Shown: in pieces, positions 1 to 61,859 of the stretch
How positions within the stretch are numbered: the first letter of the stretch is position 1
How the letters are laid out: every line of letters starts with the position of its first letter
Assembly: GCA_965215125.1 (NCBI GenBank)
Contig: OZ244052.1
Span: 416,001-480,000 of the forward strand
Direction of reading: 5' to 3'
DNA length: 64,000 bases
DNA from: an uncultured candidatus Porisulfidus sp.
Lineage (GTDB): Bacteria > Pseudomonadota > Gammaproteobacteria > Poriferisulfidales > Oxydemutatoraceae
Notes under the pieces: generated by a model
The model's database searches: none
What the model saw: only the letters and a program-made list of their open reading frames with translations
What the model was told of the DNA's origin: nothing
Program-made: the position numbers and the translations under genes

Positions 1-3000
1 TGCGGTAATCGTGCCGACCACATAACTGTCGGTGATGCTAAGAGTGGAATCTACATCGCCGACCAAACCGCCGGCAACTGCCGATCGACCGTTGACGGCA
101 AGATTACCGACAAAATAACTATTGCTAATTCGGGCACGCCCGCCACTCGTTCCACTAATAGTATTGACCAAACCGGCGACAGCGGCGACTCCTTCTATAT
201 TTCCTATCACATAACTATTGCTTATCGTACACCGCTTACACGATGCGGCAATGCCGGCAACCACACCCCCTTTAATATCCACACCCGACAATCCGATACC
301 GTCTATATAGGCAACACGACTATCGCTACCTATAACTACAAAAAGACCACCTCTGGACCTCACACTTAAATTGGCAATCGTTTTATTATTGCCTTTGAAT
401 GTGCCGGTAAAGGTTCCTGCTATAGGTTTCCAAGCACCCGCACCCGTCCATCGTCCCATATTCTCCTCGGCATTGCGATAACTACCGACATCGTTAAAAT
501 CCAAATCTCTTAACAATTCATAACCACGACATCCCGTACTCGGACAGCCCGATGTAATCTTGACCGACCCGACATTCGCTTTATAGCCGCTACCGTCCAA
601 CTGATAGCGGATCGCATTCAAATCTTCCAAATAATCGATATCGACGAGACCGTCGCCGTCTTCGTCTATGACCCTATGAGGCGCATAACTCAGATAAAGC
701 GTATATCTAACCGTCTGCGTGCTTTCTACTTCAATAATCACTTTTTTTACTTCGTCATTTTTCAACGAAATCAAAAAGTTCATATTGTTACTGTCTAGGG
801 TTTCTCTCACAGACCCTATAATGTTAATACGCGCAGTCGGTTCTATCGCAACCGGAGTCAAACGCACACTTGGATGGTCGCTGACCGCCGTACCGAAATA
901 AACGCCGCTTTGGTTGAGCCTCTCAATATCAAGCGGTGGAGAGAATGTAACATCATTTGCCGCCGTTAAATAACGCAAGCCGTAGCGAAAACCCGGCGAT
1001 ATTAAATTGCCACATTGCGACATTCCCGATAAATCACATTCAAAAACACTTTCGGTTGCAGTGGTATATTTAAGTATCGGGTATTGTTGCGGTGTTCCGA
1101 AATCCCAATCGCCGGTATCCCAATCTTTATAAATACTATTCGGCATCACAGGGGTTGCCGATCGAAGCTGTGTTGAGGTCTGCCCGATACCATTATTGCC
1201 TCCGGTTGCAATGGTGTCGGTATTCCAATAGCTTGCGACAGGTGTGCGGCCATCGTTGATACCGACTAAACTGCCTCTGGTGTTGCTACCACCGCCGAGT
1301 TCGCCGATCGCATAACTACTTTTTATAGAGCCAAGGTTATATCCAACCAACCCACCTGCGATAGCACCAACAACACTAACCGCCGCATAACCGTTAATAA
1401 TCCGTGCTTGCGAATCATTCCAACCGACCAAACCGCCGATAATAGTACTACCTTCTCCCGGCAGAACCTTACCGGTCGCATAACTATTGGCAATTAGACT
1501 CCGATTAAGACCCACCAAACCACCGAACCGCGAGCCGCCCGAACTCGGTATTACGATACTATCGGCATGACTATTGATAATCCTGCCATCGTTATCTCCG
1601 ATTAGACCACCGAGCGATGAAGTTCCTAACACCTCGACTATTGCATAACTGCCGATAACATCTCCGCCGTCGTTGTTTGCGACCAGACCACCGCCCACAC
1701 CCTCGATACTTTTTGATACAACACTGCCACTGACATAGCTATAGCCGACTTGTCCTCGGTGAGTGCCGATCAGTCCGGCAACTTTAGCTCCACCTTCTAC
1801 TTTCACATTCAACAAACCGATATTGCTTATCAGTGCATCGGATGTGCTAACTCCGAATAAACTTTGATTGTCAACATCGTCTCTATTGATCTGCAAACCC
1901 GATATCGTATAACCATTGCCGTCGAAGCGACCGGCAAAAGGCTCCGACTCGTTGCCCATGGGCACCCAACCCGTATCGGTGGCATCCTGGTAATCATCTA
2001 CCGTCCAAAAAATCCTATTCAACGGCTCCAGATAACTCTCGCTATCTGCAAAATCCAAGTCCCTAGTTAACTTATAAGAGCCCGTCGGTCGATCTCGTAT
2101 CGCATCTAAGTCTTCTAGGTAGTTAATCGGCATAATCCTATCGTCGGCAATACTTTGATAACCGATATACAGCGCATAGCGTACGGTTACAGTTCCTTGC
2201 ACTTCAATGTGAATACGTGTCATACCGGTTGGCTGTAAAGAAATTGCTTTACTCGTCTCGCCGCTTCGGATGCCGTCGTACGCGGTGTTGTCGTCGCCGA
2301 TATAGAAACGAATGTGCGCAGCCGGTTCTATCGCCGTCGGAATCAACCGTATCGTATTATCGGTACTGCGCAGACTACCGATATAAATACCGCTTCGGTT
2401 TTGTGCCTCTATATCAAACTTGGGAGATAGAACAACACCGTCCGCCGTCGCCAAACTGTGTAAACCGTAGCGTAAGCGAGGCGATATCAACTCGCCGCAT
2501 TGCGGCACTCCCGGCACACCGCAGGCATCACCGTCGGGTCCCGGTGCGTATTTGAGGATAGGATATTGCGCGCTGTTGCCGAAATCCCAATCGGCATCGT
2601 CCCATTCTTCGTATATCCCGATTGCCGCAGTAGGCAATTGCATTTGCCGCGTACTCTGACCGCTCCCGTGACGATTTTGTGCGCCACCAATCTCGACATT
2701 CCAGTAGCTTGCTCTAATGCTTCCTCCATTGATCGCAACCAAACCGCCGCCGCTTCCCTGCACCCTACCGACGGCATAACTGTTGCTAACCCTTGCTGCA
2801 GCTATTTGATTAACACCGACCAAGCCTGCTACATCACTGTTTCCGGAAACTTCGCCGTCTGCATAGCTATTCGTTATAGACCCTCGGTTGATACCGGTTA
2901 AACCGCCTACATGCGCATCCCCTCCCACATCACCACCGGCATAGCTATTGATTACCCGTGCATTGATAGCATTCCAACCTATAAGCCCTCCCACATTGTT

Positions 3001-15300: not shown

Positions 15301-18300
15301 TCAATTCTCGCACCGTCCGCCGAAACACCGAATAAACCGATATCACCGGCAGGGATATCGTGTATCCTCAAATTTGATATCGTGTGTGCATTACCGTTTA
15401 ATAAACTGCCGAAAGGATTGCTACGGTTTCCTATCGGTTGCCACCCTGCACCGGTCGTCCACATCGAGTTGACCCTACCCACACGATAACTACCGGGATC
15501 GTTAAAGTCTAAGTCTCTGCTCAGTTTATAACCCTTGCATCGCCTCATGTTGTCTTCGGTGTCTATAGGGCAATCCTCCAAAACATTGGACAGACGCTCT
15601 ATAGGATTACGCATCAGGTTCAAGTCCTCTAGATAATCAATCGTTATCAAACCATCTACTACCTCAATATTGTGCAGTACCCTAATCGTGTAGAATGTCG
15701 ACATACTTTGATTTGCGGATCTCACCGTAATTACAATACCGTCTAAGTCGTCGCTTAGAGTGAACAATGAACTTTGCCCGCTACTTGTGGATGAGTGCAA
15801 GCTACCTGCATCTATGGTGATCGTATCGGTGTCGTAATAGGCAGTCGGTGTGATACGAAATGTGATGCCCGAATCGACGACTAGATCATAGTCGTATATC
15901 TCGGGATTAAATGACGGAGTCAAGTGTGCATTTTTTGAAAGCTCCATCCGAGTCAGCCCGGTACGCTGCCCGGGTAACAAGGTTCCGCAGGTCGGTAATT
16001 TCATATCCGCCGGTGATGTTTCGCACGCACGATTATCCTTATCATCGCCTGCCGCATAAAGCAAGGCCGGATATTGCTCTGCATTACCGAAGTGCCAATC
16101 GGCTCTGTCCCATCCGGTATAGATATCATCCGACGGCACACCGGCTTTAAGTGCCGCTGCAGTTTTATCGATGCCGACGAGTGAGTCGATCCCGGAGATA
16201 ACTGCACCTTTTCTATAGTAGCTATTATTAAATGTTCCTTCGCCGGAGCTTACCGCAACCAGACCTCCCACTCTACCATTATCGACCTGCACATCACCGG
16301 CTGCATAGCTATCGTTAACAATGGAACTCCCACTGCCGTTTGTTCCCACCAAACCTCCGGCGATACCGCTATTGACTCGCACATCGCCGCCGGCATAACT
16401 ATTAACAATGGAACCACCTTGAATCTCACCGACTAAGCCTCCCACAAAACCGGTTGTTGCTTCTATGTTGACATACGCATAACTATTGACGATTTTACCG
16501 AGCCTGTTTCTACCGACCAAACCACCGACGACATTGATTCCGCCTCCGCTATCTACGAGCTTGCCGTCTGCGTAGCTATTGATAATCGTGCCGGAGTTGA
16601 AGGCGGCTATACTACCGATAAGACTCTGCCCGGCAATATCTACATTCACCAAACCGAGATTCTCAACTCTGCCACCGGCTCCGATCGCTGCGAATAAACC
16701 CATATTGTCGGTATTATTTGCTTTTATGGTCAAATTAGAAATCGTGTAGCCGTTGCCTCTAAATAAACCGGTAAAAGGTTCACTCGGACTACCTATGGGT
16801 TGCCAACCAATCCCGGCAAGGTCTATATCGGCAGTCAGTTCATATCCTATACATCCGCTGGAACAATAGATTGCATCGGCAGTTTCGCTCTCTTGATAGG
16901 CATCGCCGTCCATACGGTGGCGGACGGCATTCAAATGTGTCGCATTGCTAATATCTATGAATCCGTCGTCGTCTTCGTCTATGCTTTGAACTACGATGTC
17001 GAGCCGATCGACGACGAATCGATATCGATACGAATGTCGCTTACCGTCTTTTACGACCAAACTAAAAACCGTATCGCCGGTGTCGTTCAACGGTATCGGT
17101 ACCGTCCATTCACCGCTATCGGTTTCTCCTATTGAGGTGCCATCCTTAAAAACTTCAATACTTGCTATTGCATTAAACGCAGTCGGTAACATGCGAATAG
17201 TACTCCGATCGGCATTGACCGATATACCGTAATCAAATGATGTAAATGCAAAAGGACCGGATAAACCTGCGCCTTCGGATAATTTTAGTTCTCGCAATAA
17301 GCTCCCTTGATGACGAAGCAAGGTGCCGCAATCAGCGGGACGATTCTGAGTGCTTGCCGCATCACAATATGCATCACTATCGGTAGAGTCGGCACGCAAA
17401 TTATACTTAACCGCCGGATATTGCTCATCGCTGCCGAAATCCCAGTTATCGCCACTCCAGCTTGTATAAATACCGGTTGCACTCGTCGGTGATTGAAGCA
17501 CAACGGTGCGTTTACTCTCTCCCAAAGTCACATTGGTTCTAGAAATATCTTTGTCCAAATAAATTGCCTTAGCAGTCGGTGCACGCTGATCGCTCGGATC
17601 TCTATTGCCACCGAATAAGCCTTGCGGCACATCGGCTTTGGTTGCCGAAACACTCGCATAGCTGTTGCCGATTTCAACAGCCGACGATGAACGCACCCCG
17701 ATCAAGCCGCCTATAAATCCGTCATCGTGTTTTCCGGCAATCTCGCCGACCACATAGCTGTCGGTGATAGTTAAATCGGAGTCTACATCGCCGACCAAAC
17801 CCCCGGCAACCGCCGATCGACCGTCGACGGCGAGATTACCGATAAAATAACTGTTGCTAATTCGGGCATGCCCATCGCTCGTTGCACTAATAGTATTGAC
17901 CAAACCGGCGGCAGCGGCGACTCCTTCTATATCTCCTATCACATAGCTATTGCTTATCGTACACCGCTTACACGATGCAGCAATTCCGGCAACCACATCC
18001 CCTTTAATATTCACACCCGTTAATCCGATACCGTCTATATAGGCAACACGACTATCGCTACCGATGGTTGCAAAAAGACCTCCGTTTGTTCCCACGCTTA
18101 AATTGGCAATCGTTTTATTATTGCCTTTGAGTATAGCGGTGAAAGGTCCTTGTATAGGAAACCAATTATTTATACCCGTCCATCGCCCCATATTCTCCTC
18201 GGCATTGCGATAGCTACCGACATCGTTAAAATCCAAATCTCTTAGCAATTCATAACCACGACATCCCTCTCTCGGACAGCCCAAAGTAATCTTATCCGAC

Positions 18301-33366: not shown

Positions 33367-33607
33367 TCCTCGTTAAGTCAATATGCCGATTTTGCCCGTA
33401 AATAAAGGTGATGAATCCGCTTTTGGATAAACGGTATTAAATATACGACGAATGACCATCTGACAGGGTGGTCGTGGCATGTCTGCTGTGCGGTGACAGA
33501 GAATTTGACAGAAGCGGTTTTTAACGGGATTTGACGGAATTTGGCGGTATTGCTTGCTTTCCGAGCGCGAAAGAAGTCGCGCGTGCTGTCACTGGCTCGC
33601 AACGGAG

Positions 33608-33620
33608 AATCAATGACTTA
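33608..33620 (+). promoter_or_regulatory. IHF-binding consensus in the prophage end
   Basis: AATCAATGACTTA is a perfect match to WATCAANNNNTTR. Confidence 0.55.
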
Positions 33621-33814
33621 CGAGCCGAACTCGCGCGCAATAAATCGGCGAATTTTGGGGTATTAAACCTGTTTTAACCTTTGTTTAATTAGCTTTCAAA
33701 GGATTATTGAATGTGTATTTAACATAACGTAACTCGCGCGCTAACTCGCGCGAACTCGCGCGTACGAAACTTTGTACAAAAACGGCACTTTTGTACAAGT
33801 AATGTCCTGCTATT

Positions 33815-34300
33815 TTAGGCTAACGGCAGGCTGATAAATCGGGCAATAATCTCCTCAATTTCACGGCGACCTTCGTTTGATAATCCGAGAAACGGACGCG
33901 GCGGAATATCTCCCCAAGGAATAGGACGACCGTGCTTATCACTACCAAAGCTACCTCTCCCTGCACCAAACTGCTGCGTGGCTGCGTAGATAGCATTAGT
34001 GCCTGCGATGGCATAATCTTTACCGAAGGCTGATGTGATACTGTTTGCGAGCCGACCTGTTTGTTGTAGCTTTTGCCCCGGCCAATAGCCGGATTTCTCG
34101 CGCTGTTTGATTGTTGTGTCCGACAACGGCACCCATGTCTCACCATCCGGTGCTTGTTCAGATTGAAAGGCTTCCTCAATATTATCTACTAACACGCCGG
34201 CGATCGCTTGCATTGCAGGTGATAGGTCGTCACCGCGACGCGCCAAAAAGTTTAATGATTGCAGTGCCTTCTTGTCTTTGATTTTGATGTCTATTTTCAT
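33815..34300 (-). CDS. Phage virion morphogenesis protein (Mu gpG/gp31-like)
   Basis: Likely start at 34300 (MKIDIKI, GGGAG RBS); PDGETWVPLS, LQQTGRLANSI, GTNAIYAATQQFG, IPPRPFLGLS motifs. Confidence 0.88.
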   Translation of the reverse strand: MKIDIKIKDKKALQSLNFLARRGDDLSPAMQAIAGVLVDNIEEAFQSEQAPDGETWVPLSDTTIKQREKSGYWPGQKLQQTGRLANSITSAFGKDYAIAGTNAIYAATQQFGAGRGSFGSDKHGRPIPWGDIPPRPFLGLSNEGRREIEEIIARFISLPLA

Positions 34301-34311
34301 TGTGGTATACT
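34284..34311 (+). promoter_or_regulatory. Predicted sigma70 promoter for the convergent small RNA
   Basis: TTGATG (34284-34289), 16-nt spacer, TATACT (34306-34311) with an extended TG; lies 4 nt before the start of the RNA stem. Confidence 0.55.
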
Positions 34312-34315
34312 CCCA

Positions 34316-34417
34316 GTGTGTGGCAAGCAAATGGCCGGATGAAATTAGGTTAGGCTTTAAGTTCATTCGGCTACGGCAAGCACCTAGCTGTTATGTGAGA
34401 TCCCGCTTGCCACGCAC
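34316..34417 (+). ncRNA. Predicted structured small RNA (~102 nt) convergent with the MuF nuclease gene
   Basis: 13-bp closing stem 34316-34328/34405-34417; 11-bp stem 34333-34343/34362-34372; 5-bp stem 34373-34377/34387-34391. All four imperfect pairs are G-U on the + strand. Confidence 0.6.
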
Positions 34418-34418
34418 C

Positions 34419-35759
34419 TTAATCATTTTTATAAAGTAAAGTTCCCTCTCGCTGATTGTCTGCATAGTTAGCATCTGCTGGTATAGCGTTCCAAAAAACA
34501 CTTGCATCTGTATTCTCTCGGGCAATTACTAGCATATTTTTTTCACCTCTAAATAATTTAATAAACCGGCGGCGAAAACTGCCATCAGTATATTCAGTCA
34601 ACCAAATTTCACTTGGGTTAGCCAATGTAGGGAGAATGAAGTTAGCATACCTTTCTCGGGCATCCGATCGTTTTCCAGATATATATTCTAATCCTTCCTC
34701 GCTGATAATAACTGGTTCTAGCGGTGTTTGAATGTTGCGAAAGTCGTTTTTTTTACCAAGCACAACCTCTGCAATTTGAGCATGAGCTAGAGTGGCTGAC
34801 TCTGCTCTAGGCAATAGCTTAGGAGCCTCTGCAAAAGCGAAGTCTGGAAGCTTTTTCACACTAGGTAATCCGTAGCTTGAATACTTTTTTTGACCGGGCT
34901 GTATTCTGGCGATACCTTTACCTCGACTACTAACCTGATCGGGTAATGCGCCGAGCTTATCCCACAAAGCCCACCTAGCACCGGGGTTATAATCAAAGCT
35001 CACATCAGGTGCCTCTATGAAGGTTTTGCCTAGCGCATCTCTACCTCGATACCTAACAGATAGTTGGGTTAGTGCTTCGCCTGTATATTTATCAACGCCG
35101 ACTTCTTGAGTGAAGGTCTCCAGATGTCCTTCACTCGTACCAACTTTCAATCCACGAGATTTAAGTTGTCGCTCGGTTAATGTCCGCACACGACACCTGC
35201 AATTCCAGCCGTTAGGTGGGTAGAAGGTATCCCAGAACGGATCGTCAAAACGGAAGACCTTACCGTGTAGCTTGCGGTGCGCCGGGCGAGTGCGAGAGTC
35301 CATCACGGCGAGGTATTGCCAGTATTGTCCTGCACCGATGCGCTGTGTTGCCAGTTCCACTTGTTGTTTGTATCTACCCGCACTATAAGCGGTGTTTAAG
35401 TTGGTTCTAAAGATGGTTTTGAGCCTATTCACGGAACCCAGTTGCACTAGTTCAGCGGTGCCGTCGGGAGCCTCTTTTACACGCTTGCCCCACCAACCGA
35501 GCTTCTGCAGTTTCGGCTGTAGTTCTTTCTTATAAGTATGGAAAGCGATACCTTCGGAGATTGCTTTATCGGTCTCATTACGGATAGCCCGCAATACTTC
35601 CATTTTGGTAGCTTTAGCAACCGTGAATGCTTTCGCATTAGCTTCGGCTAGCGACTCGTGCCAGTCCCATGTGATGCGATAGCCTTTGCTTCTAAAGTAT
35701 TCAATAGCATCACTCGGTTGGAGCTTAACCGCAAATCCGAGATCAACTGCTTCAGGCAT
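34419..35759 (-). CDS. MuF (Mu gp30/gpF) head morphogenesis protein with C-terminal PBECR2-like (BECR-fold) nuclease domain
   Basis: AFTVAK, RLKTIFRTN, DSRTRPAH, PPNGWNCRCRV MuF motifs; C-terminal RERYANFILPTLANPSEIW...RRRFIKLF...WNA...REGTLLY. Confidence 0.85.
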   Translation of the reverse strand: MPEAVDLGFAVKLQPSDAIEYFRSKGYRITWDWHESLAEANAKAFTVAKATKMEVLRAIRNETDKAISEGIAFHTYKKELQPKLQKLGWWGKRVKEAPDGTAELVQLGSVNRLKTIFRTNLNTAYSAGRYKQQVELATQRIGAGQYWQYLAVMDSRTRPAHRKLHGKVFRFDDPFWDTFYPPNGWNCRCRVRTLTERQLKSRGLKVGTSEGHLETFTQEVGVDKYTGEALTQLSVRYRGRDALGKTFIEAPDVSFDYNPGARWALWDKLGALPDQVSSRGKGIARIQPGQKKYSSYGLPSVKKLPDFAFAEAPKLLPRAESATLAHAQIAEVVLGKKNDFRNIQTPLEPVIISEEGLEYISGKRSDARERYANFILPTLANPSEIWLTEYTDGSFRRRFIKLFRGEKNMLVIARENTDASVFWNAIPADANYADNQREGTLLYKND

Positions 35760-36254
35760 TGAGCTGCCCCCAAGTATCTGCGGCGAATATGATTCTTGTC
35801 AATAAATCATGCAAACCCTCGCCATCCATGTCTTGATACCGCTCAGCGAGCAGACCTAAAATGTAATCGGGATTCTCGTCTATGGCATCAAGCAGAGGTT
35901 GCGCTAAAGATTCAGCTATCTGTTGCTGTGTATCATTATCTATGGATGATAGTACCGCCTCCAATGCTTCTTCCACATCGGCGGTCTCGGCAAAGTCCGA
36001 TGTTTGATTACCCGTCGGCGGCGCGAACGGTATTCCAACATCGTCTACTTCAATCTTATAAGTCTCTTCGACATGCTCTTTTGTCGGACGATAACCCATC
36101 TCAAATAGCACTTTATCTCGCTCCGCCTGTTCTTTGCCTGAGCTACGCTCAAATTGGCGACGCACCTTCGGCAAGGCAGCACCGGGATAATTCCATTCAA
36201 TCAGCCAACGCACGACCGAGCGCGTAAATGAGTCGTCCAACATCTGCTCTAGTA
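35752..36254 (-). pseudogene. Phage portal protein (Mu gp29/DUF935), C-terminal fragment
   Basis: SFTRSVVRWLIEWNYPGAALPKV..AERDKVLFEMG..LTRIIFAADTWG resembles the gp29 C-terminus. The 5' end is replaced by a repeat, and the track's start codon at 36267 lies inside that repeat. Confidence 0.75.
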
Positions 36255-36310
36255 CATTCCCCTCCACAGGAGGGGAATAACCACCCCGTCAGGCACAGCC
36301 TGCCACCCTA
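36255..36310 (+). repeat. Palindromic extragenic repeat family A (interrupted; continues at 37671-37683)
   Basis: cattcccctccacaggaggggaataaccaccccgtcaggcacagcctgccaccc matches 52709-52760. Confidence 0.85.
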
Positions 36311-36334: not shown

Positions 36335-36555
36335 CAGCTTATTTGATATAAGATAAACGCTTAGGTAGATGCAGTGCCTAGGAAGTCGGAGGAGACACGC
36401 TGCAGGACGGACAAGGCATTAAAGCCTGGTTGCATGAAAAGCACTCCTCCGGCGTTATGACTATAGAGCTCGAAAGGCATCTTGGGACTTTAGATCTCGT
36501 ATTTATCTGTTTGAGCGGCGTAGTCATACTTTCCTAGACTTTGCTTGCTACCTAT
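36335..36555 (+). ncRNA. IS110 bridge RNA (target-binding and donor-binding loops)
   Basis: Target guides GGACGGACA (36405-13) and TTGCATG (36430-36) match the target GGGCGGA-CA-TGCAA. Donor guides AAGGCATC (36474-81) and TATCTG (36504-09) match the circle junction AAGGCAT-CA-GATA. Each loop is closed by stems. The RNA ends are approximate. Confidence 0.85.
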
Positions 36556-36594
36556 TATTTCATTAACTCAACAACCCATATGGAGAACATTATT

Positions 36595-37581
36595 ATGGAA
36601 AACAAACAACCCGTCACAATTGGCGTTGATGTCTCTAAAGAGACTTTAGAAACAGCTCTATTATTCACCGATAATAGTTTTGCCGAGCAGCAATTCAGTA
36701 ATGATGCCAAAGGCATTAAACAACTGTTATCTTGGGCTACCGAGCATGGTGCGCAACAGTGTCGCCTCTGCGTTGAGGCAACCGGCGGTTTTGAGCTAGA
36801 CCTGTGCATGGAAAGCTATGACCAACATCCCATCACGATTGTGCCACCTGTACAGGTCGCGAGCTACCGCAAAACGCTGGGTATGCGTAATAAAACCGAT
36901 GGCGTTGATGCGCAACTCATCGCACGCTTCGCATTTGCAGTCGGTGATATTCAAGACTGGGAACAGCCTACCGAAGCAGTATTCGCCTTGAGAGATACAC
37001 TGAAATGGCGCCGGCAATTAACCAAGTCCCATACGCAGTTAAGCAACTGTGCAAAGACGCTGCGCAGTATGCAGCTCAAAAAGAAGGCAGCTGCAGAACT
37101 CGCTCACCTCCAGAAGCAAATCCATGAGTGTGACGCCTTACTTTACGAAATCATCGCTGAAGACGAACAACTCACACAGCAGTATCAATTGCTCTGCTCT
37201 ATTACTGGAATCGGAACTCAAACCGCAGCCACCCTATGTGCAGCTTTTGATGATAATACGTTTCAACACCCAAAGCAACTTGCCGCCTATATCGGCATCA
37301 CTCCGATGCGCAAGCAATCCGGCAACTACGAGGCGAAGGCGCACATCTCTAAAATTGGCGATGCACACCTGCGCACCGCACTATTTATGGCGGCACTCTC
37401 GGCTCGGGTTCATAACCCAATCGTCCGTGCGTTCGCCGACCAGTTAAGCCGGCGGCGTCCGGATTTAACCAAAAAGCAGGTTATTGTTGCTTGCGCCCAT
37501 AAACTGACGCGTATCATTTACGGAATACTCAAGCACAAGAAACCGTTTGACCCGAATTATTGTTGCGTATCTGCGTCCTAA
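36595..37581 (+). CDS. IS110-family DEDD recombinase/transposase
   Basis: IGVDVSK, CVEATG and KTDGVDA supply the DEDD residues; SITGIG, LAAYIGITP, QSG (Tnp serine), KIGDAHLR, VACAHKL. GGAG RBS before ATG 36595. Confidence 0.95.
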   Translation: MENKQPVTIGVDVSKETLETALLFTDNSFAEQQFSNDAKGIKQLLSWATEHGAQQCRLCVEATGGFELDLCMESYDQHPITIVPPVQVASYRKTLGMRNKTDGVDAQLIARFAFAVGDIQDWEQPTEAVFALRDTLKWRRQLTKSHTQLSNCAKTLRSMQLKKKAAAELAHLQKQIHECDALLYEIIAEDEQLTQQYQLLCSITGIGTQTAATLCAAFDDNTFQHPKQLAAYIGITPMRKQSGNYEAKAHISKIGDAHLRTALFMAALSARVHNPIVRAFADQLSRRRPDLTKKQVIVACAHKLTRIIYGILKHKKPFDPNYCCVSAS

Positions 37582-43111: not shown

Positions 43112-43984
43112 ATGAAAACAAAAGTTACTAAGAAAAAATCCTCCTCTCTCTCTCAACCTCCCTCGAAAAAGAAGACCGCAAAGAAGAAATCTTCGGTGCC
43201 CAAAACCCGTACACCCCAAAAGAAGGTCGTTAAGAAAAAGACTCCGAATCGAAAAACCGGTACGCCCTCAAAGAAAGTCGTTAAGAAAAAAGCTCCGACT
43301 CGAAAAACCCGTACGCCCCCAAAGAAGGTCGTTAAGAAAAAGGCTCCGACTCGAAAAACCGGTACGCCCTCAAAGAAGGTCGTTAAGAAAAAAGCTCCGA
43401 CTCGAAAAACCCGTACGCCCCCAAAGAAGGTCGTTAAGAAAAAGGCTCCGACTCGAAAAACCGGTACGCCCCCAAAGAAGGTCGTTAAGAAAAAAACTCC
43501 GACTCGAAAAACCGGTACGCCTCAAAAGAAGGTCGTTAAGAAAAAGACTGCGGCTAGAAAAAGTAATCCCATACAGATCAGTGAGATTAAAAGGAAATCG
43601 CGCGGGTTGCAACGAAGCAAAAAGTATATGGATAGTCAACAGTTGGAGTACTTTCGCAATATCCTACTATCACGCAGAGAAGAATTGATAAGCGAAGCAG
43701 GTCGTATGGTAGATTATATGCAAACCGGTTCTAATACTTATGCCGATGCCATAGATCAAGCAAGTCAAGAGGAAGAGTTTACTCTACAATTGAAGGAACG
43801 CGATAGAGAAAGGAAGTTGCTACAAAAAATAGACGAAGCCCTCGCTAAAATAGATAAGCAAGAATACGGTTTTTGTGTCTCCTGCGGAGCCGAGATCGGC
43901 ATTAGTAGACTAGAGGCAAGGCCGACAACCGATCAATGCATAGATTGCAAAGAAATCGACGAACTCAGAGAGCGGCATTACTAG
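43112..43984 (+). CDS. dksA: RNA polymerase-binding factor DksA with Lys-rich N-terminal repeat extension
   Basis: YMDSQQLEYFR, DAIDQASQEEE, RDRERKLL, CVSCG...RLEARPT..CIDCK zinc finger. Confidence 0.93.
   Translation: MKTKVTKKKSSSLSQPPSKKKTAKKKSSVPKTRTPQKKVVKKKTPNRKTGTPSKKVVKKKAPTRKTRTPPKKVVKKKAPTRKTGTPSKKVVKKKAPTRKTRTPPKKVVKKKAPTRKTGTPPKKVVKKKTPTRKTGTPQKKVVKKKTAARKSNPIQISEIKRKSRGLQRSKKYMDSQQLEYFRNILLSRREELISEAGRMVDYMQTGSNTYADAIDQASQEEEFTLQLKERDRERKLLQKIDEALAKIDKQEYGFCVSCGAEIGISRLEARPTTDQCIDCKEIDELRERHY
43202..43548 (+). repeat. 51-bp coding tandem repeat (KKVVKKK(A/T)PTRKT(G/R)TPx), ~6.8 copies
   Basis: KKVVKKK units start at 43220, 43271, 43322, 43373, 43424, 43475 and 43526. Confidence 0.95.
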
Positions 43985-44011: not shown

Positions 44012-44222
44012 GTGGGGCTGTTGAAAAAATACCGTTCTGCACAATCGCAACCGCTTGCACCCATTCCCCCCCTGTGGAGGGGTGGCCTATGCATTTTGCA
44101 ATGCATGCGTTTAGCAGTCATGATGAGGTTCTGCACAAAGTCACGCCGATTGACCTACCGGTTCAATCGGCGGTTCTATTGAGCCCGACGGGGTGGTCTT
44201 TCGTGTCTGTACAAACCCAACG
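44012..44222 (-). repeat. Composite repeat: family A with inserted module C, plus a GGGCTGTTGAAAAA end
   Basis: Reverse complement of 52590-52730; lies between the convergent dksA and nrdB genes. Confidence 0.8.
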
Positions 44223-50750: not shown

Positions 50751-51284
50751 ATGCCCGAAGTGCTTATCCCGTTGGCAACCGGCTACGAAGAAGTAGAAGC
50801 GGTTACATTAATAGACTTGTTGCGCCGTGCCGATATCAAAGTCACCACCGCCGCCTTGGACACCAAAGAAGTGTGTAGCTTACACGGCCTACACTTGGTT
50901 GCCGATACTACGCTCGACGAAGTTAAGGAATACAACTTTGATATGGTCGTGCTACCGGGCGGACAACCCGGTGCCGACAACCTCAATGCCGATCCTAGAA
51001 TCCACGAAATTCTAAAACGCCACCGTACAACGCAATGGATCGGTGCCATTTGCGCAGCCCCGAAGGTGCTGGTTGACGCGGGTGTTGTAGATCAATTAAA
51101 AATCACCGCTTACCCCGGCGTTTTAGAGGGGCAAAGTTCCCCAACCGAAGCGGTAGCATGCGACGACAAAGTGATTACCTCTCGCAGTCCCGGCACTGCG
51201 ATGGAATTTGCGCTGACAATCATAGAAAAACTAGTCGGCACCGAAAAGAGAAAAGCTGTAGAGAGCGACCTCATAACGGCATAA
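50751..51284 (+). CDS. yajL: DJ-1/PfpI family protein (YajL/ThiJ)
   Basis: GYEEVEA..DLLRRA, LPGG, AICAAP, TSRSPGTAMEFAL. Confidence 0.88.
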   Translation: MPEVLIPLATGYEEVEAVTLIDLLRRADIKVTTAALDTKEVCSLHGLHLVADTTLDEVKEYNFDMVVLPGGQPGADNLNADPRIHEILKRHRTTQWIGAICAAPKVLVDAGVVDQLKITAYPGVLEGQSSPTEAVACDDKVITSRSPGTAMEFALTIIEKLVGTEKRKAVESDLITA

Positions 51285-51496
51285 ACCGCCGATTGAACCT
51301 GCAGGTCAATTGGTATCACATTTTGCCAAACCGCAATGCAACCGACATATGTAGAGGCAGACCATTCCCCTCCTTCGGAGGGGTGGCAGGCGCGATAGAA
51401 CCACCACTTGTTGCAGTAGCACAAGTGGTGTCACTTTGTGCAGGACACTAACGCATATTGCAAAATGTAAAGCCTTTCTCTGGGGTGGTTGTCGTA
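51284..51496. repeat. Composite repeat cluster (partial module C, GTAG half-REP, family A with variant module C)
   Basis: ccgccgattga..tcaattgg; gtagaggcagac; cattcccctccttcggaggggtggcaggc; tagaacc..ttgcaaaatg; ggggtggtt. Confidence 0.75.
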
Positions 51497-52455: not shown

Positions 52456-52822
52456 GGGTGGTGGGGTTTGTGCAGACACGAAGGGGCTATTGAAAAAGTG
52501 CGGACATCGCACAAATTCAAACGCTGTGCGCCAACAAATAATGGTTTCCGTAAATTGGATGAATGAATATATAAATCATGCAGATACGACACCACCACCC
52601 CGGTCAGGCTCAGTAGAACCGCCGATTGACCTACTGGTTCAATCGGCGTGACTTTGTTCAGAACCTCAACATGATTGCTAAACGCATACATTGCAAAATG
52701 CTTAGGCCACCCCTCCGAAGGAGGGGAATAACCACCCCGTCAGGCGTAGCCTGCCACCCCTCCGAAGGAGGGGAATTAGATTGTGCAGAACCACAATGTA
52801 ACCGACATGCGTAGGGGTGGAC
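52456..52822 (+). repeat. Composite repeat cluster with tandem family A units and module C
   Basis: Two cccctccgaaggagggg hairpins (~52710 and ~52757) joined by accaccccgtcaggcgtagcctgcca; module C at 52614-52704. Confidence 0.85.
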
Positions 52823-59135: not shown

Positions 59136-59300
59136 CATTCCCTTCCTCCGGCGTAGTGGCTTGTGGGGGCTGACGAGGTGGTTGTGGCATGGGGTTGTTG
59201 AAAAAGTATCCACGAACCTGAGGGGCGGTACATTCCCCTCCTTTGGAGGGGTGGCAGGCGTAGCCTGACGGGGTGGTTGTGGCATGTCTGCACAATGTAA
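59136..59300 (-). repeat. Composite repeat cluster (family A) between apaG and apaH
   Basis: cattcccctcctttggaggggtggcaggcgtagcctgacggggtggttgtggcatgtctgc; ggggttgttgaaaaag. Confidence 0.85.
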
Positions 59301-60957: not shown

Positions 60958-61014
60958 AGCTACCCCGTGGCTACGCCTGCCACCCCTCCGAAGGAAGGAA
61001 TGGTTCGTCCCTAC
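60958..61014 (+). repeat. Family A repeat plus GTAG half-REP downstream of ssrA
   Basis: accccgtggctacgcctgccacccctccgaaggaaggaatggttcgtccctac. Confidence 0.75.
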
Positions 61015-61859
61015 CGGTCGGGGGGTAGCGATAGTTGCATCAATACTGCCGAAAACTCTCGCCAAAGATCGCCCGGTGTACCGTTTCCTATTTGTTGTTC
61101 GTCGACACGGGTCACCGGTACTATATTGCGCGTCGAACTCGTCAGCCAAATCTCGTCGGCATGTAGCAAGTCGGCACGAGTTAGTGCTTTTTCTTTACAG
61201 TCGACTTTTAACCGAAAGGCTATTTCCATGACAACCTTGCGGGTAATCCCTCCCAATATCTTGTTATCGAGCGGCGGCGTCGATAAGCAACCCTCGGTCA
61301 CGATGAATAGGTTGCTCGAGGCACCCTCGGTCACATAACCTTCGTGTATCATAATCGCCTCGTGGCATCCTCGGCTTCGGGTTTGCATGCTTAGCATCAC
61401 ATTTGCCAATAAATTGGTAGATTTGATATCACAACGGGCCCACCGTATATCGTCGGTGGTCATAACACTTACACCGTGTTTGACCTTCTTTTCAAAAGCC
61501 GCCCTTGCCGGCATGGTCATTGCAAATACCGTAGGACGGATGTCGTCGTCGGGAACATGCAATCTAATCGGTGCCTGCCCTCTGCTGACTTGTAAGTAAA
61601 TGGAAAGTTCGGACAATCCACAACGGTTAATTAACTCGGAAAATATCGTTTTCCATTGTTCATCGGTCCGAGGATTATCTATACCTATATTTTGCAGGCT
61701 ACGATTGAGCCTACGCAGATGGTCGTCGCAACGAAAAACGGTACCGTGATATACCGGCAATACCTCGTACACACCGTCTCCGAAGAGGAACCCTCTATCC
61801 AAAGGGCTGATAGTACACGCTTCGGCTTGTTGATACTTTCCGTTGAGATAAGCTATCAC
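61011..61859 (-). CDS. dat: D-amino-acid aminotransferase (class IV PLP enzyme)
   Basis: DRGFLFGDGVYE, RWARCDIKSTNLL, TEGASSN, ILGGITR; typical position after dacA. Confidence 0.85.
   Translation of the reverse strand: MIAYLNGKYQQAEACTISPLDRGFLFGDGVYEVLPVYHGTVFRCDDHLRRLNRSLQNIGIDNPRTDEQWKTIFSELINRCGLSELSIYLQVSRGQAPIRLHVPDDDIRPTVFAMTMPARAAFEKKVKHGVSVMTTDDIRWARCDIKSTNLLANVMLSMQTRSRGCHEAIMIHEGYVTEGASSNLFIVTEGCLSTPPLDNKILGGITRKVVMEIAFRLKVDCKEKALTRADLLHADEIWLTSSTRNIVPVTRVDEQQIGNGTPGDLWREFSAVLMQLSLPPDR

What the first reader, a model, noticed from the sequence alone, without database searches (positions are those of the whole stretch)
34284..34800. Candidate nuclease-RNA module: a convergent, promoter-bearing ~102-nt structured RNA abuts the PBECR2-like domain of MuF, with no protein immunity gene
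Seen: the 118 bp between the MuF stop (34419) and the gpG start (34300) fold into a multi-stem structure. The stems are GTGTGTGGCAAGC/GCTTGCCACGCAC, GGCCGGATGAA/TTCATTCGGCT and ACGGC/GCTGT. All four imperfect pairs are G-U on the + strand but would be A-C mismatches on the mRNA strand, which points to a + strand RNA. A TTGATG-16-TGgTATACT promoter sits 4 nt before the stem. The loop ACCTA (34382-86) could pair with TAGGT (34346-50) as a pseudoknot, and GTGAGATC resembles a T-loop. The fold ends 1 nt from the nuclease stop codon. Established: MuF proteins carry variable C-terminal toxin domains, often RNases, normally followed by an immunity ORF. Inference: the RNA could be an RNA antitoxin (type III-like), a decoy substrate or tRNA mimic, or an RNP partner of the BECR-fold domain. 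I know of no description of this pairing.
Basis: partly seen in the sequence, partly recalled or inferred. Interest (0 to 1): 0.82.

Follow-up and report, generated by a model that had tools for sequence, protein, structure and literature searches.

The report
Antisense structured RNA beside phage nuclease
The gap after a phage head protein that carries an RNA-cutting domain holds a small folded RNA gene on the opposite strand, and related RNA genes (some shaped like tRNA) accompany this kind of domain in many bacteria, so the RNA may be the enzyme's antidote or partner.

Summary
Window 34301-34418 folds far better on the + strand (-47 kcal/mol, z -3.8) than on the mRNA strand (-35.5, z -1.4). 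Ten copies in 4 genomes of the genus keep the stems: 301 of 310 cells pair on the + strand and 259 of 310 on the mRNA strand. Nine of the ten keep the TATACT -10 box.

In 194 related loci, long MuF proteins (C-terminal PBECR domain) are usually followed by a spacer of 85-200 nt before gene G (91 loci; 11 abut G). Short MuF usually abuts G (21; 5 have such a spacer). These spacers carry antisense features:
- an extended -10 box in 23 of 70 representatives, against 3 of 70 on the sense strand;
- covarying stems;
- in the MuF_C class, a canonical tRNA T-arm (14 of 22; 0 sense).

RefSeq already labels the E. coli version "tRNA-OTHER". All 10 long MuFs of these two classes that abut G (phage Mu's type included) lack the predicted catalytic motif, and all 74 that keep the motif have a spacer.

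The most likely role is an RNA antidote or decoy, or another partner, of the nuclease. This is unproven: no expression data were found. The window copy sits in a prophage remnant and has Tyr at the catalytic His position. I found no description in Rfam or in the papers searched.

The parts
34316..34417 (+). Core of the predicted small RNA (about 102 nt): closing stem P1, hairpins P2 and P3, and a 9-nt joining strand (34396-34404).
   Evidence: Fold. Consensus structure of 10 genus copies: 31 pairs, 97.1% of cells paired, 2 pairs with compensatory double changes. Covariance model R1 finds only these 10 places in 19 family genomes.
34316..34328 (+). P1 5' arm GTGTGTGGCAAGC. It pairs with 34405-34417.
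   Evidence: A-U changes to G-C in 2 of 10 copies.
34405..34417 (+). P1 3' arm GCTTGCCACGCAC. It ends 1 nt before the MuF stop codon.
34333..34372 (+). P2 hairpin: 11-bp stem with an 18-nt loop, AUUAGGUUAGGCUUUAAG. The loop is invariant in 9 of 10 copies.
   Evidence: C-G changes to U-A in 2 copies; the G-U to A-U changes fit only the + strand.
34377..34395 (+). P3 in the genus consensus: a 6-bp stem with hexaloop CCUAGC (34383-34388), which is complementary to GUUAGG in the P2 loop (34349-34354).
   Evidence: The pairing is only possible, because the letters do not vary within the genus.
34284..34311 (+). Promoter-like site for the RNA: -35 TTGATG (34284-34289), 16-nt spacer, extended -10 TGgTATACT (34303-34311). 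It lies inside the start region of gene G.
   Evidence: The TATACT hexamer is kept in 9 of 10 genus copies, even where homology to G ends at the box (L011). Across families, TGnTAnnnT is found on the antisense strand in 23 of 70 representatives and on the sense strand in 3 of 70.
34426..34430 (+). Run of 5 T, 8 nt after P1 and inside the last codons of MuF. It is a possible 3' end of the RNA but not a canonical terminator.
   Evidence: The terminator scan lists nothing here. Relatives often have a T run directly after P1.
34419..35759 (-). MuF head protein (446 aa) with a C-terminal PBECR2 domain (residues 344-444, about 34428-34730).
   Evidence: Pfam. AlphaFold model of the last 150 aa has pLDDT 92.9.
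34683..34685 (-). Codon for Tyr359, at the position of the near-invariant helix His of PBECR2.
   Evidence: Alignment A1 marks H359 as nearly invariant. Alignment; coordinates. The role of His comes from Iyer 2017 (passage read).
33815..34300 (-). Mu G-like virion morphogenesis gene (161 aa).
   Evidence: Pfam PF05069 at 3.5e-33. Start as in relatives.
35752..36267 (-). C-terminal fragment of a Mu-type portal gene. It marks the upstream edge of the prophage remnant.
   Evidence: Pfam PF06074, matching profile positions 270-336 only.

Best explanation
Window 34316-34417 (+) is a small structured RNA gene transcribed against the phage late operon from its own sigma-70 promoter.

It belongs to a widespread, sequence-diverse class of antisense RNA genes. 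These fill the slot between MuF proteins that carry a C-terminal PBECR (colicin-D-like RNase) domain and gene G.

The most likely role is an RNA antidote for that nuclease. The folded RNA would bind the PBECR domain as an uncleavable substrate look-alike. In the PBECR2 class it is a three-way junction; in the MuF_C class it is a tRNA-like cloverleaf with a degenerate anticodon arm. Binding would keep the nuclease harmless in the cell that makes virions, and in lysogens. The free nuclease would act only after injection into a new host.

Shown: the structure, the strand bias, the promoter conservation, and the association with nuclease-bearing MuF.
Inferred: transcription, binding and inhibition.

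The window's own copy sits in a prophage remnant with Tyr at the catalytic His, so it may be a surviving 'orphan immunity' module rather than part of a working phage.
For: **1. Structure and strand in the genus**
- 10 copies in 4 of 5 genomes.
- 301 of 310 cells pair on the + strand and 259 of 310 on the mRNA strand.
- 46 G-U cells against 4 A-C cells.
- The core is nearly invariant, while the flanking coding DNA is 73-80% identical.

**2. The slot**
- Long MuF: spacer of 85-200 nt in 91 loci, over 200 nt in 16, abutting G in 11.
- Short MuF: abutting in 21, 85-200 nt in 5, over 200 nt in 12 (194 loci).

**3. Antisense features across 70 non-redundant spacers**
- Extended -10 box: 23 antisense, 3 sense, about 7 expected by chance.
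- ARAGORN at relaxed threshold: 15 antisense, 0 sense, 2 of 350 shuffles.
- T-arm: 14 antisense, 0 sense, 2 hits in 600 kb of control DNA.
- T-stem: 4 of 5 pairs have compensatory changes.

**4. Covariation in the largest PBECR2-type family**
- P2: 7 of 8 pairs have double changes.
- P1: own arms pair at 9 or more of 10 positions in 18 of 23 RNAs; in cross-comparisons 64 of 494 do.

**5. RNA type follows nuclease type**
- T-arm in 14 of 22 MuF_C-class RNAs and 0 of 39 PBECR2-class RNAs.

**6. Co-loss with the catalytic motif**
- All 10 long MuFs of the two classes that abut G lack the motif.
- All 74 with the motif, where G was found, have a spacer.
- Phage Mu itself has F and G overlapping. 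Iyer 2017 calls its domain inactive (passage).
- Close pairs differ in both traits: L041 against L047, and L151/L152 against Mu.

**7. Orphan copies**
- The orphan copies in the genus keep the PBECR2 coding part plus the RNA (the most decayed, L012, only the RNA core), and most also keep the promoter. Their homology runs from window 34828-34974 to 34195-34302, apart from L011 (34657) and L012 (34414-34333).

**8. No alternative coding reading**
- No conserved ORF lies in the spacer. Indels of 1 and 2 nt break the only candidate frame.
Against: - No transcript is shown.
- MFE z-scores are unremarkable for most spacers: median -0.6; z below -2 in 10 of 70 antisense and 11 of 70 sense.
- The antisense strand is the more stable in only 40 of 70.
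- In the second copy in this genome (L002) the mRNA strand folds better.
- The generic 'long closing helix' count does not separate spacers from control DNA.
- The loop-loop pairing seen by eye did not beat controls: 3 of 44 at p<=0.05, and own 4.78 nt against cross 4.55 nt.
- With phylogeny taken into account, co-loss rests on 5 independent pairs. The motif goes the same way in 3-4, the other way in 0, and does not differ in 1-2. Sign test p = 0.125.
- 21 motif-lacking MuFs, by my crude patterns, still have the spacer.
- The window's nuclease has Tyr359 for His.
- Co-loss fits a cofactor, a substrate or an antisense silencer as well as an antidote.
Confidence: 0.5

Rival explanations
1. A cis-antisense regulator, like a type I antitoxin or lambda OOP RNA. 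The RNA would act by pairing with the late mRNA between F and G, over about 100 nt of perfect complementarity. This would trigger cleavage or block expression of the nuclease-bearing F and/or G, for example to silence leaky late transcripts in lysogens.
For: - Convergent geometry and a separate promoter.
- The promoter overlaps the ribosome-binding region of G.
- Co-loss with the catalytic motif is expected if only an active nuclease needs silencing.
Against: - The RNA overlaps almost no coding sequence, and the spacer exists only to encode it.
- Pure antisense action does not explain conserved higher-order folds: a cloverleaf with D and T arms in 14 of 22 MuF_C-class RNAs.
- It does not explain the G-U bias that keeps the antisense strand folded.
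- It does not explain why RNA type tracks nuclease type.
Confidence: 0.17
2. A cofactor, cargo or substrate of the nuclease rather than its inhibitor. The RNA would be bound by the PBECR domain and packed into the head with MuF. Alternatively it would be cut by the domain to make an active RNA or to time its release.
For: - The same association and co-loss data.
- Iyer 2017 predicts RNA binding for this domain family (passage).
- Two tandem copies of the tRNA-like gene in L201 and L207.
Against: - MuFs with the inactive domain, which Iyer 2017 predicts still binds RNA, have lost the RNA gene. This argues against a plain binding or packaging role.
- A sigma-70 promoter firing against the late operon fits a product needed before and independently of late genes.
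Confidence: 0.15
3. In this window the element is only a decaying relic with no present function, whatever its ancestors did.
For: - The prophage is reduced to a portal fragment, MuF and G, next to an IS110 transposase.
- Tyr359 replaces the catalytic His.
- Other copies in the genus are truncated, and one lacks the promoter (L012).
Against: - The RNA core is better conserved than the neighbouring coding DNA.
- Changes in the stems are compensatory or G-U.
- The -10 box is kept in 9 of 10 copies, even beyond the end of G homology.
- Of 70 representatives the window RNA has the lowest antisense folding z-score.
Confidence: 0.1
4. A sense-strand element of the late mRNA (terminator, processing hairpin or translational operator for G), or a dispersed repeat such as a REP or MITE.
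For: - It is an imperfect palindrome in an intergenic gap.
- In L002 the mRNA strand folds better.
Against: - 46 G-U cells against 4 A-C cells favour the other strand.
- T-arms and ARAGORN hits are never on the sense strand.
- No terminator-like site.
- All 10 copies in 19 family genomes lie next to PBECR2 coding DNA.
- The 26-nt core is found in 1 of 401 sampled genomes of the class.
- Mu and the short-MuF phages do without it.
Confidence: 0.05

Closest known systems
Type III toxin-antitoxin systems (ToxIN, CptIN, TenpIN). This comparison is recalled, not from a call.
   Same: A protein endoRNase would be neutralised by a structured RNA encoded right beside it. These systems are often carried on mobile elements.
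   Different: - The RNA here is a single copy, not a tandem repeat array (no tandem repeat).
- It is convergent to the nuclease gene, with its own promoter, rather than upstream on the same strand.
- The nuclease is a BECR-type domain fused to a virion protein.
- Inhibition and processing are untested.
Colicin D / ImmD and CDI toxin-immunity pairs (protein immunity that mimics the tRNA substrate). Recalled, apart from the Iyer 2017 link of PBECR to colicin D.
   Same: A colicin-D-like RNase would be held in check in the producer by a cognate partner encoded directly downstream of the toxin domain. Polymorphic toxin systems also show displaced 'orphan' toxin-end plus immunity modules, as seen in this genus.
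   Different: The partner would be an RNA, in some lineages a real tRNA look-alike, not a protein. Structural similarity of the window domain to colicin D is weak: Z 4.1, rmsd 3.5, 84 residues aligned.
MuF polymorphic toxins with downstream immunity ORFs (Jamet 2017, PMC5576092, passages read) and PBECR-MuF fusions (Iyer 2017, PMC5512222, passages read).
   Same: The same protein architecture and the same expectation that an immunity function follows the toxin domain.
   Different: In the passages read, both papers speak only of protein immunity or of none. Here the slot holds an RNA gene. One PBECR2 lineage (L097-L099) has an 84-aa ORF there instead.
tRNA genes and tRNA-like RNAs (Rfam RF00005; 'tRNA-OTHER' of NCBI annotation).
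   Same: The MuF_C-class relatives have an acceptor stem, a D arm and a canonical T arm. One reaches Rfam's tRNA threshold (L068, 30 bits against 29). E. coli copies are annotated 'tRNA-OTHER' in all 8 rows listed, out of 231 of 5426 genomes with a match.
   Different: - Anticodon arms are degenerate, with loops of odd size and 'anticodons' that differ from locus to locus.
- Acceptor stems are lengthened to 9-12 bp.
- The window's own RNA matches no tRNA model.
Convergent antisense RNAs of phages and prophages (lambda OOP; the txpA/RatA type of type I systems). Recalled.
   Same: A small RNA transcribed convergently at the 3' end of a potentially harmful gene, from a constitutive-looking promoter.
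   Different: Very little overlap with coding sequence. Complex conserved folds. The toxin is not a small membrane peptide.

Membership tests
PBECR2 (Pfam PF18810), protein domain next to the RNA | Match to the family profile above the curated cut-off | tested here: met
   78.1 bits against a cut-off of 27.1, residues 344-444.
PBECR2 (Pfam PF18810) | [quoted passage not shown] | tested here: not met
   The window has Tyr359. His is nearly invariant in alignment A1 and in most relatives. In the genus, 4 copies have Tyr (L001, L005, L002, L008) and 3 of those aligned have His (L006, L007, L010).
BECR fold (colicin D-like RNases) | Structural similarity of a confident model to solved BECR RNases | tested here: inconclusive
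   Model pLDDT 92.9. Foldseek against PDB finds nothing at E<=0.001. With VIA-align the top rows include colicin D (5znm_B: Z 4.1, rmsd 3.5, 84 aligned; 1tfk_A: Z 3.6) and CDI toxins (7m5f_C: Z 3.8), but all Z are below 5.
tRNA / tRNA-like RNA (Rfam RF00005, ARAGORN) | Cloverleaf with a T arm (5-bp stem, TTCRANY loop) recognised by a tRNA model | tested here: not met
   For the window RNA there is no Rfam match up to E 10, no ARAGORN hit on L001 and no T-arm. The feature is met by relatives of the MuF_C class: 14 of 22.
Type III toxin-antitoxin system | RNA antitoxin made of tandem direct repeats, upstream of and co-directional with the toxin gene | tested here: not met
   No tandem repeat in 34200-34500. 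The RNA is downstream of and convergent to the nuclease gene.
Type III toxin-antitoxin system | RNA binds and inhibits the endoRNase, which also processes it | not testable with these tools
   Needs expression, toxicity-rescue and binding assays.
Type I toxin-antitoxin / cis-antisense RNA | Antisense RNA overlapping the toxin mRNA; toxin is a small hydrophobic peptide | tested here: not met
   The geometry is convergent, but overlap with the MuF coding region is at most the last few codons. The 'toxin' is a 446-aa virion protein.
Any described RNA family (Rfam 15) | Match at or above a family's gathering score | tested here: not met
   Window 33500-35500: nothing above gathering, best 19.3 bits for an unrelated snoRNA model. 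In 20 related loci the only match is tRNA in L068.
Dispersed intergenic repeat (REP/MITE-like) | Many copies in unrelated intergenic contexts | tested here: not met
   2 copies in the genome. 10 copies in 19 family genomes, all beside PBECR2 coding DNA.
Intrinsic terminator of the late operon | GC-rich hairpin followed directly by a T run on the mRNA strand | tested here: not met
   No terminator-like site at 34300-34420 on either strand.

The most novel reading that the evidence does not exclude
Phages of the Mu type use RNA, not protein, as the immunity factor for a virion-delivered RNase. A family of fast-evolving tRNA-shaped or three-way-junction decoy RNAs would be made constitutively from the prophage. 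Each would be matched to its own PBECR nuclease, protecting the producer cell and lysogenic kin. Bacteria would keep orphan copies as protection against related phages. This would be a new class of RNA antitoxin and a new use of tRNA mimicry.
Probability: 0.35. Interest if true: 0.9.

Novelty: new variant of a known kind. Interest (0 to 1): 0.8.

Why it matters
MuF-PBECR fusions are among the commonest predicted injected effectors of phages. Nobody has explained how the producing cell survives them, because many have no immunity ORF.

A cognate RNA in the immunity slot would answer that question. It would add a structurally new kind of RNA antitoxin, and it would explain hundreds of 'tRNA-OTHER' calls in E. 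coli and other genomes.

It is directly testable in laboratory E. coli with ordinary toxin-rescue, Northern and pull-down experiments. Even if the RNA proves to be a regulator or cofactor, this is a large, undescribed class of structured phage RNAs with clear covariation.

Tried and rejected
- **RNA-seq support.** No RNA holder is listed for window 33800-35800. The 5 rows are all contigs of unknown kind. I did not lay reads.
- **Binding of the 84-aa ORF of L097 to its PBECR2 domain.** Complex prediction gave no verdict.
- **tblastn of the PBECR2 part against the phage collection.** No match.
- **Core DNA motif outside the genus.** Found in 1 of 401 sampled genomes of the class, the window's own. 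By DNA search, 4 of 61 relatives.
- **MFE z-scores as a general signal.** Not useful.
- **Generic longest-closing-helix statistic.** 57 of 70 score 8 or more, but control regions after short MuF give 6.5-11.5, so I dropped it as evidence.
- **Loop-loop (kissing) pairing between P2 and P3.** By eye it is attractive in several families, with different complementary words in each. Two automated tests were at chance level, so I report it only as a possibility.
- **Small-ORF reading of the spacer (MNLKPNLISS...).** It is in frame with G in the window. It is shifted by 1 nt in L002 and most other copies and by 2 nt in L011 and L012, and it has no ribosome-binding site. Rejected.
- **Structure search.** Foldseek found nothing and VIA-align gave weak matches only.
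- **Earlier notes of this scan.** Nothing on this RNA.
- **Paper searches.** The four searches below found no description of the RNA:
  - 'PBECR'/'MuF';
  - 'MuF' + 'tRNA-like';
  - 'tRNA-like' + 'RNA antitoxin' + 'prophage';
  - 'Mu-like'/'tRNA-like'/'head morphogenesis'.
  
Those of Iyer 2017 and Jamet 2017 might list gene neighbourhoods that I could not see.
Full report
**What is at the site**

On the minus strand the window encodes a 446-aa MuF head protein (34419-35759). It has Phage_Mu_F and a C-terminal PBECR2 domain. After a 118-nt gap comes a Mu G-type morphogenesis gene that starts at 34300. The + strand folds to -47.0 kcal/mol, z -3.77, with 0 of 200 shuffles as good. The mRNA strand gives -35.5, z -1.44. 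Rfam has no match.

The 'prophage' is only a remnant. It consists of a portal C-terminal fragment, MuF and G. An IS110 transposase lies on one side and type IV pilus/T2SS genes on the other.

**Copies in the genus**

The genome (2.22 Mb) has a second copy. In all, 10 copies occur in 4 of the 5 genomes of the genus, and none in 56 other relatives. A covariance model built from them finds the same 10 places and nothing else in 19 genomes of the family.

Eight copies are fragments, and most share similar edges. Their homology to the window starts in the linker before the PBECR2 domain (window 34828-34974; later in L011 at 34657; L012 keeps only 34414-34333). It ends 0-105 nt into G (34195-34302). 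So what survives is 'PBECR2 coding part + RNA + promoter'.

- The 26-nt core of the P2 loop region is identical in 8 of 10 copies, with one change each in L009 and L012. The flanking coding DNA is 73-80% identical.
- On the + strand 301 of 310 stem cells pair; on the mRNA strand 259 of 310 do. There are 46 G-U cells against 4 A-C cells.
- Two pairs show compensatory double changes. Shuffle and slide controls are clearly lower: 97.1% of cells paired against 32-40% when slid.
- The TATACT box is kept in 9 of 10 copies. In L011 it is kept although homology to G stops right at it.
- Against this, the copy L002 folds better on the mRNA strand.
The consensus P3 is a 6-bp stem with a hexaloop.

**The same slot in other bacteria**

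I used an alignment of relatives to collect 194 loci from genomes, viral contigs and metagenomes.

| MuF type (G found) | Gap 85-200 nt | Gap >200 nt | Abuts G (<=15 nt) |
|---|---|---|---|
| Long, >=380 aa | 91 | 16 | 11 |
| Short, <=300 aa | 5 | 12 | 21 |

The five short-MuF gaps look like unrelated sequence, with no T-arm and no extended -10 box. The remaining loci had no G found downstream, a MuF frame that ran off the contig, or a MuF of intermediate length.

The 92 spacers fall into 70 clusters at 90% identity and 49 families by BLAST, so the sequences are very diverse. Record titles place the carriers in several phyla.

**Which strand, and is it an RNA gene?**

Among the 70 representatives:

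- TGnTAnnnT lies just upstream of the fold on the antisense strand in 23 and on the sense strand in 3. Shuffles give about 0.1 per locus. By eye, most of the rest have a TAnnnT box there.
- ARAGORN at 85% thresholds calls a tRNA-like gene in 15, always antisense. It in 350 shuffled sequences.
- A strict T-arm (5-bp stem, TTCRANY loop) is present in 14, always antisense. The rest of the loci give 2 hits in 600 kb.
- The T-stem covaries: 4 of 5 pairs have double changes.
- The 'anticodons' differ from locus to locus and some loops have odd sizes, so these are not ordinary decoders.

In E. coli, 231 of 5426 complete genomes hold the L151-type region. The 8 rows shown all carry a feature 'tRNA-OTHER' between the minor head protein and the morphogenesis protein. 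In strain M3 this feature is 80 nt long, on the opposite strand, and 1 nt from the MuF stop.

In the largest PBECR2-type family (a shared GCGCGAAA junction; 15 representatives):

- P2 has 7 of 8 pairs with compensatory changes.
- The 10 nt before the junction pair with their own 3' end at 9 or more positions in 18 of 23 RNAs. In cross-comparisons 64 of 494 do.

Thermodynamics alone is weak:

- The antisense strand is more stable in 40 of 70 and the sense strand in 29 (Wilcoxon p 0.001; the rows are not independent).
- Median z is -0.6, and about as many sense as antisense spacers fall below -2.
- A generic closing-helix count did not separate spacers from control DNA, so I do not use it.

**Link to the nuclease**

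Pfam puts the long MuF C-termini into PBECR2, MuF_C, weak PBECR3-like matches, or nothing. Iyer 2017 (passages read) treats MuF_C as a PBECR domain. That paper calls the one in phage Mu inactive and 'probably RNA binding', and gives the active site as a His in the N-terminal helix plus a C-terminal Ser/Thr, as in colicin D.

- RNA type follows nuclease type. T-arm RNAs occur in 14 of 22 MuF_C-class representatives and 0 of 39 PBECR2-class ones.
- In phage Mu itself, F and G overlap with no spacer.
- Long MuFs that abut G are of two kinds. One is the Mu type, lacking the two-His and NAYK-like motifs that all 21 RNA-bearing MuF_C-class proteins aligned keep. The other is PBECR2 lacking the His and RERYAN motifs.
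- I then applied fixed patterns blind to spacer state. All 10 abutting proteins of the two classes lack the motif. All 74 with the motif, where G was found, have a spacer. 21 without the motif also have one.
- On a FastTree tree of the N-terminal domain (96 rows), the spacer state changes 7 times. Of 5 supported independent pairs, the motif goes the same way in 3-4, never the other way, and does not differ in 1-2. The sign test gives p 0.125, too few pairs for significance.
- One PBECR2 lineage (L097-L099, near-identical) has an 84-aa ORF directly after the stop instead of the RNA. It has no Pfam family.

**The window's own protein**

The last 150 residues give a confident model, pLDDT 92.9. 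Foldseek finds nothing in the PDB. VIA-align puts colicin D (Z 4.1 and 3.6) and several CDI toxins among its top rows, but at Z values too low to count. Residue 359 is Tyr where the family has His. The same holds in three other genus copies, while three aligned copies keep His.

**Reading**

The data establish a conserved, antisense, promoter-bearing structured RNA gene class. It is bound to the presence, and apparently to the catalytic integrity, of the PBECR domain of MuF. An RNA antidote that mimics the substrate fits best for four reasons:

- its position in the immunity slot;
- its constitutive-looking promoter;
- the tRNA-like shape beside a colicin-D-like RNase;
- the survival of orphan modules.

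An antisense silencer, a cofactor or cargo, or a substrate would also explain the co-loss, so I keep them as rivals. No step of the mechanism has been observed.

**Novelty**

Neither Rfam nor the paper searches describe it: 'PBECR'/'MuF', 'MuF' + 'tRNA-like', MuF + polymorphic toxin + immunity + prophage, 'tRNA-like' + 'RNA antitoxin' + 'prophage', and 'Mu-like'/'tRNA-like'/'head morphogenesis'. Jamet 2017 expects small immunity ORFs (passages). A 2026 preprint on BECR classification mentions MuF fusions with protein partners only (passages). Supplements were closed. Annotation pipelines already flag the tRNA-like subset as 'tRNA-OTHER'.

Noticed in passing
L220 (E. coli strain M3 chromosome) 1735-1814, minus strand in the locus: RefSeq annotates an 80-nt 'tRNA-OTHER' on the opposite strand between the Mu-like minor head protein and the virion morphogenesis gene. 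231 of 5426 complete E. coli genomes match this region. ARAGORN at default settings does not call it.
   Followed up: partly
L097, L098, L099: 2524-2778 (+): In one PBECR2 lineage an 84-aa ORF starts directly after the MuF stop, where other lineages have the RNA gene. A second inserted ORF follows before G. It has no Pfam family.
   Followed up: partly
L201 and L207, first 200 nt after the MuF stop: Two tandem copies of the antisense tRNA-like gene, each with its own T arm and a similar long acceptor stem.
   Followed up: no
L006, L007, L009 (genus relatives), about 800-1000 in mRNA orientation: Orphan PBECR2 reading frames here begin with a shared foreign N-terminus (MNQKH.../MYQKH...), preceded by a shared repeat. 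The fragments therefore seem to have been joined to another repeated gene. L007 also holds a second, inverted partial PBECR2 copy.
   Followed up: no
window 1-24000: Very repetitive coding DNA on the minus strand: many families of 40-300-nt direct repeats. Two blocks about 17.7 kb apart are 84-90% identical (for example 3-302 and 17735-18034).
   Followed up: no
window 43117-43613: Tandem array with a 51-nt period, shown as 7 overlapping 191-nt rows 51 nt apart, inside ORF 43112-43984.
   Followed up: no
window 36259-36308, 44063-44193, 51284-51446, 52599-52776, 59207-59278, 60969-61027: A dispersed palindromic repeat containing CCCCTCC-GAAGG-AGGGG-like hairpins, up to 131 nt at 87% between copies. 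One copy lies just upstream of the portal fragment.
   Followed up: no
window 36541-37581 (+): An IS110-family transposase directly beside the truncated portal gene. A similar transposase end lies next to the orphan copy L008.
   Followed up: no
window 34301-34366 (-): An ATG at 34366 would extend G by 22 codons (MNLKPNLISS...). In L002 the same ATG opens a 22-codon frame that ends on the G start (ATGA). The frame is not conserved and has no ribosome-binding site.
   Followed up: yes
L175: 840-1409 (+): The C-terminal extension of this MuF gives only a weak Pfam row below the cut-off (ATLF, E 0.0034). It is followed by an 88-aa ORF rather than an RNA-type spacer.
   Followed up: no
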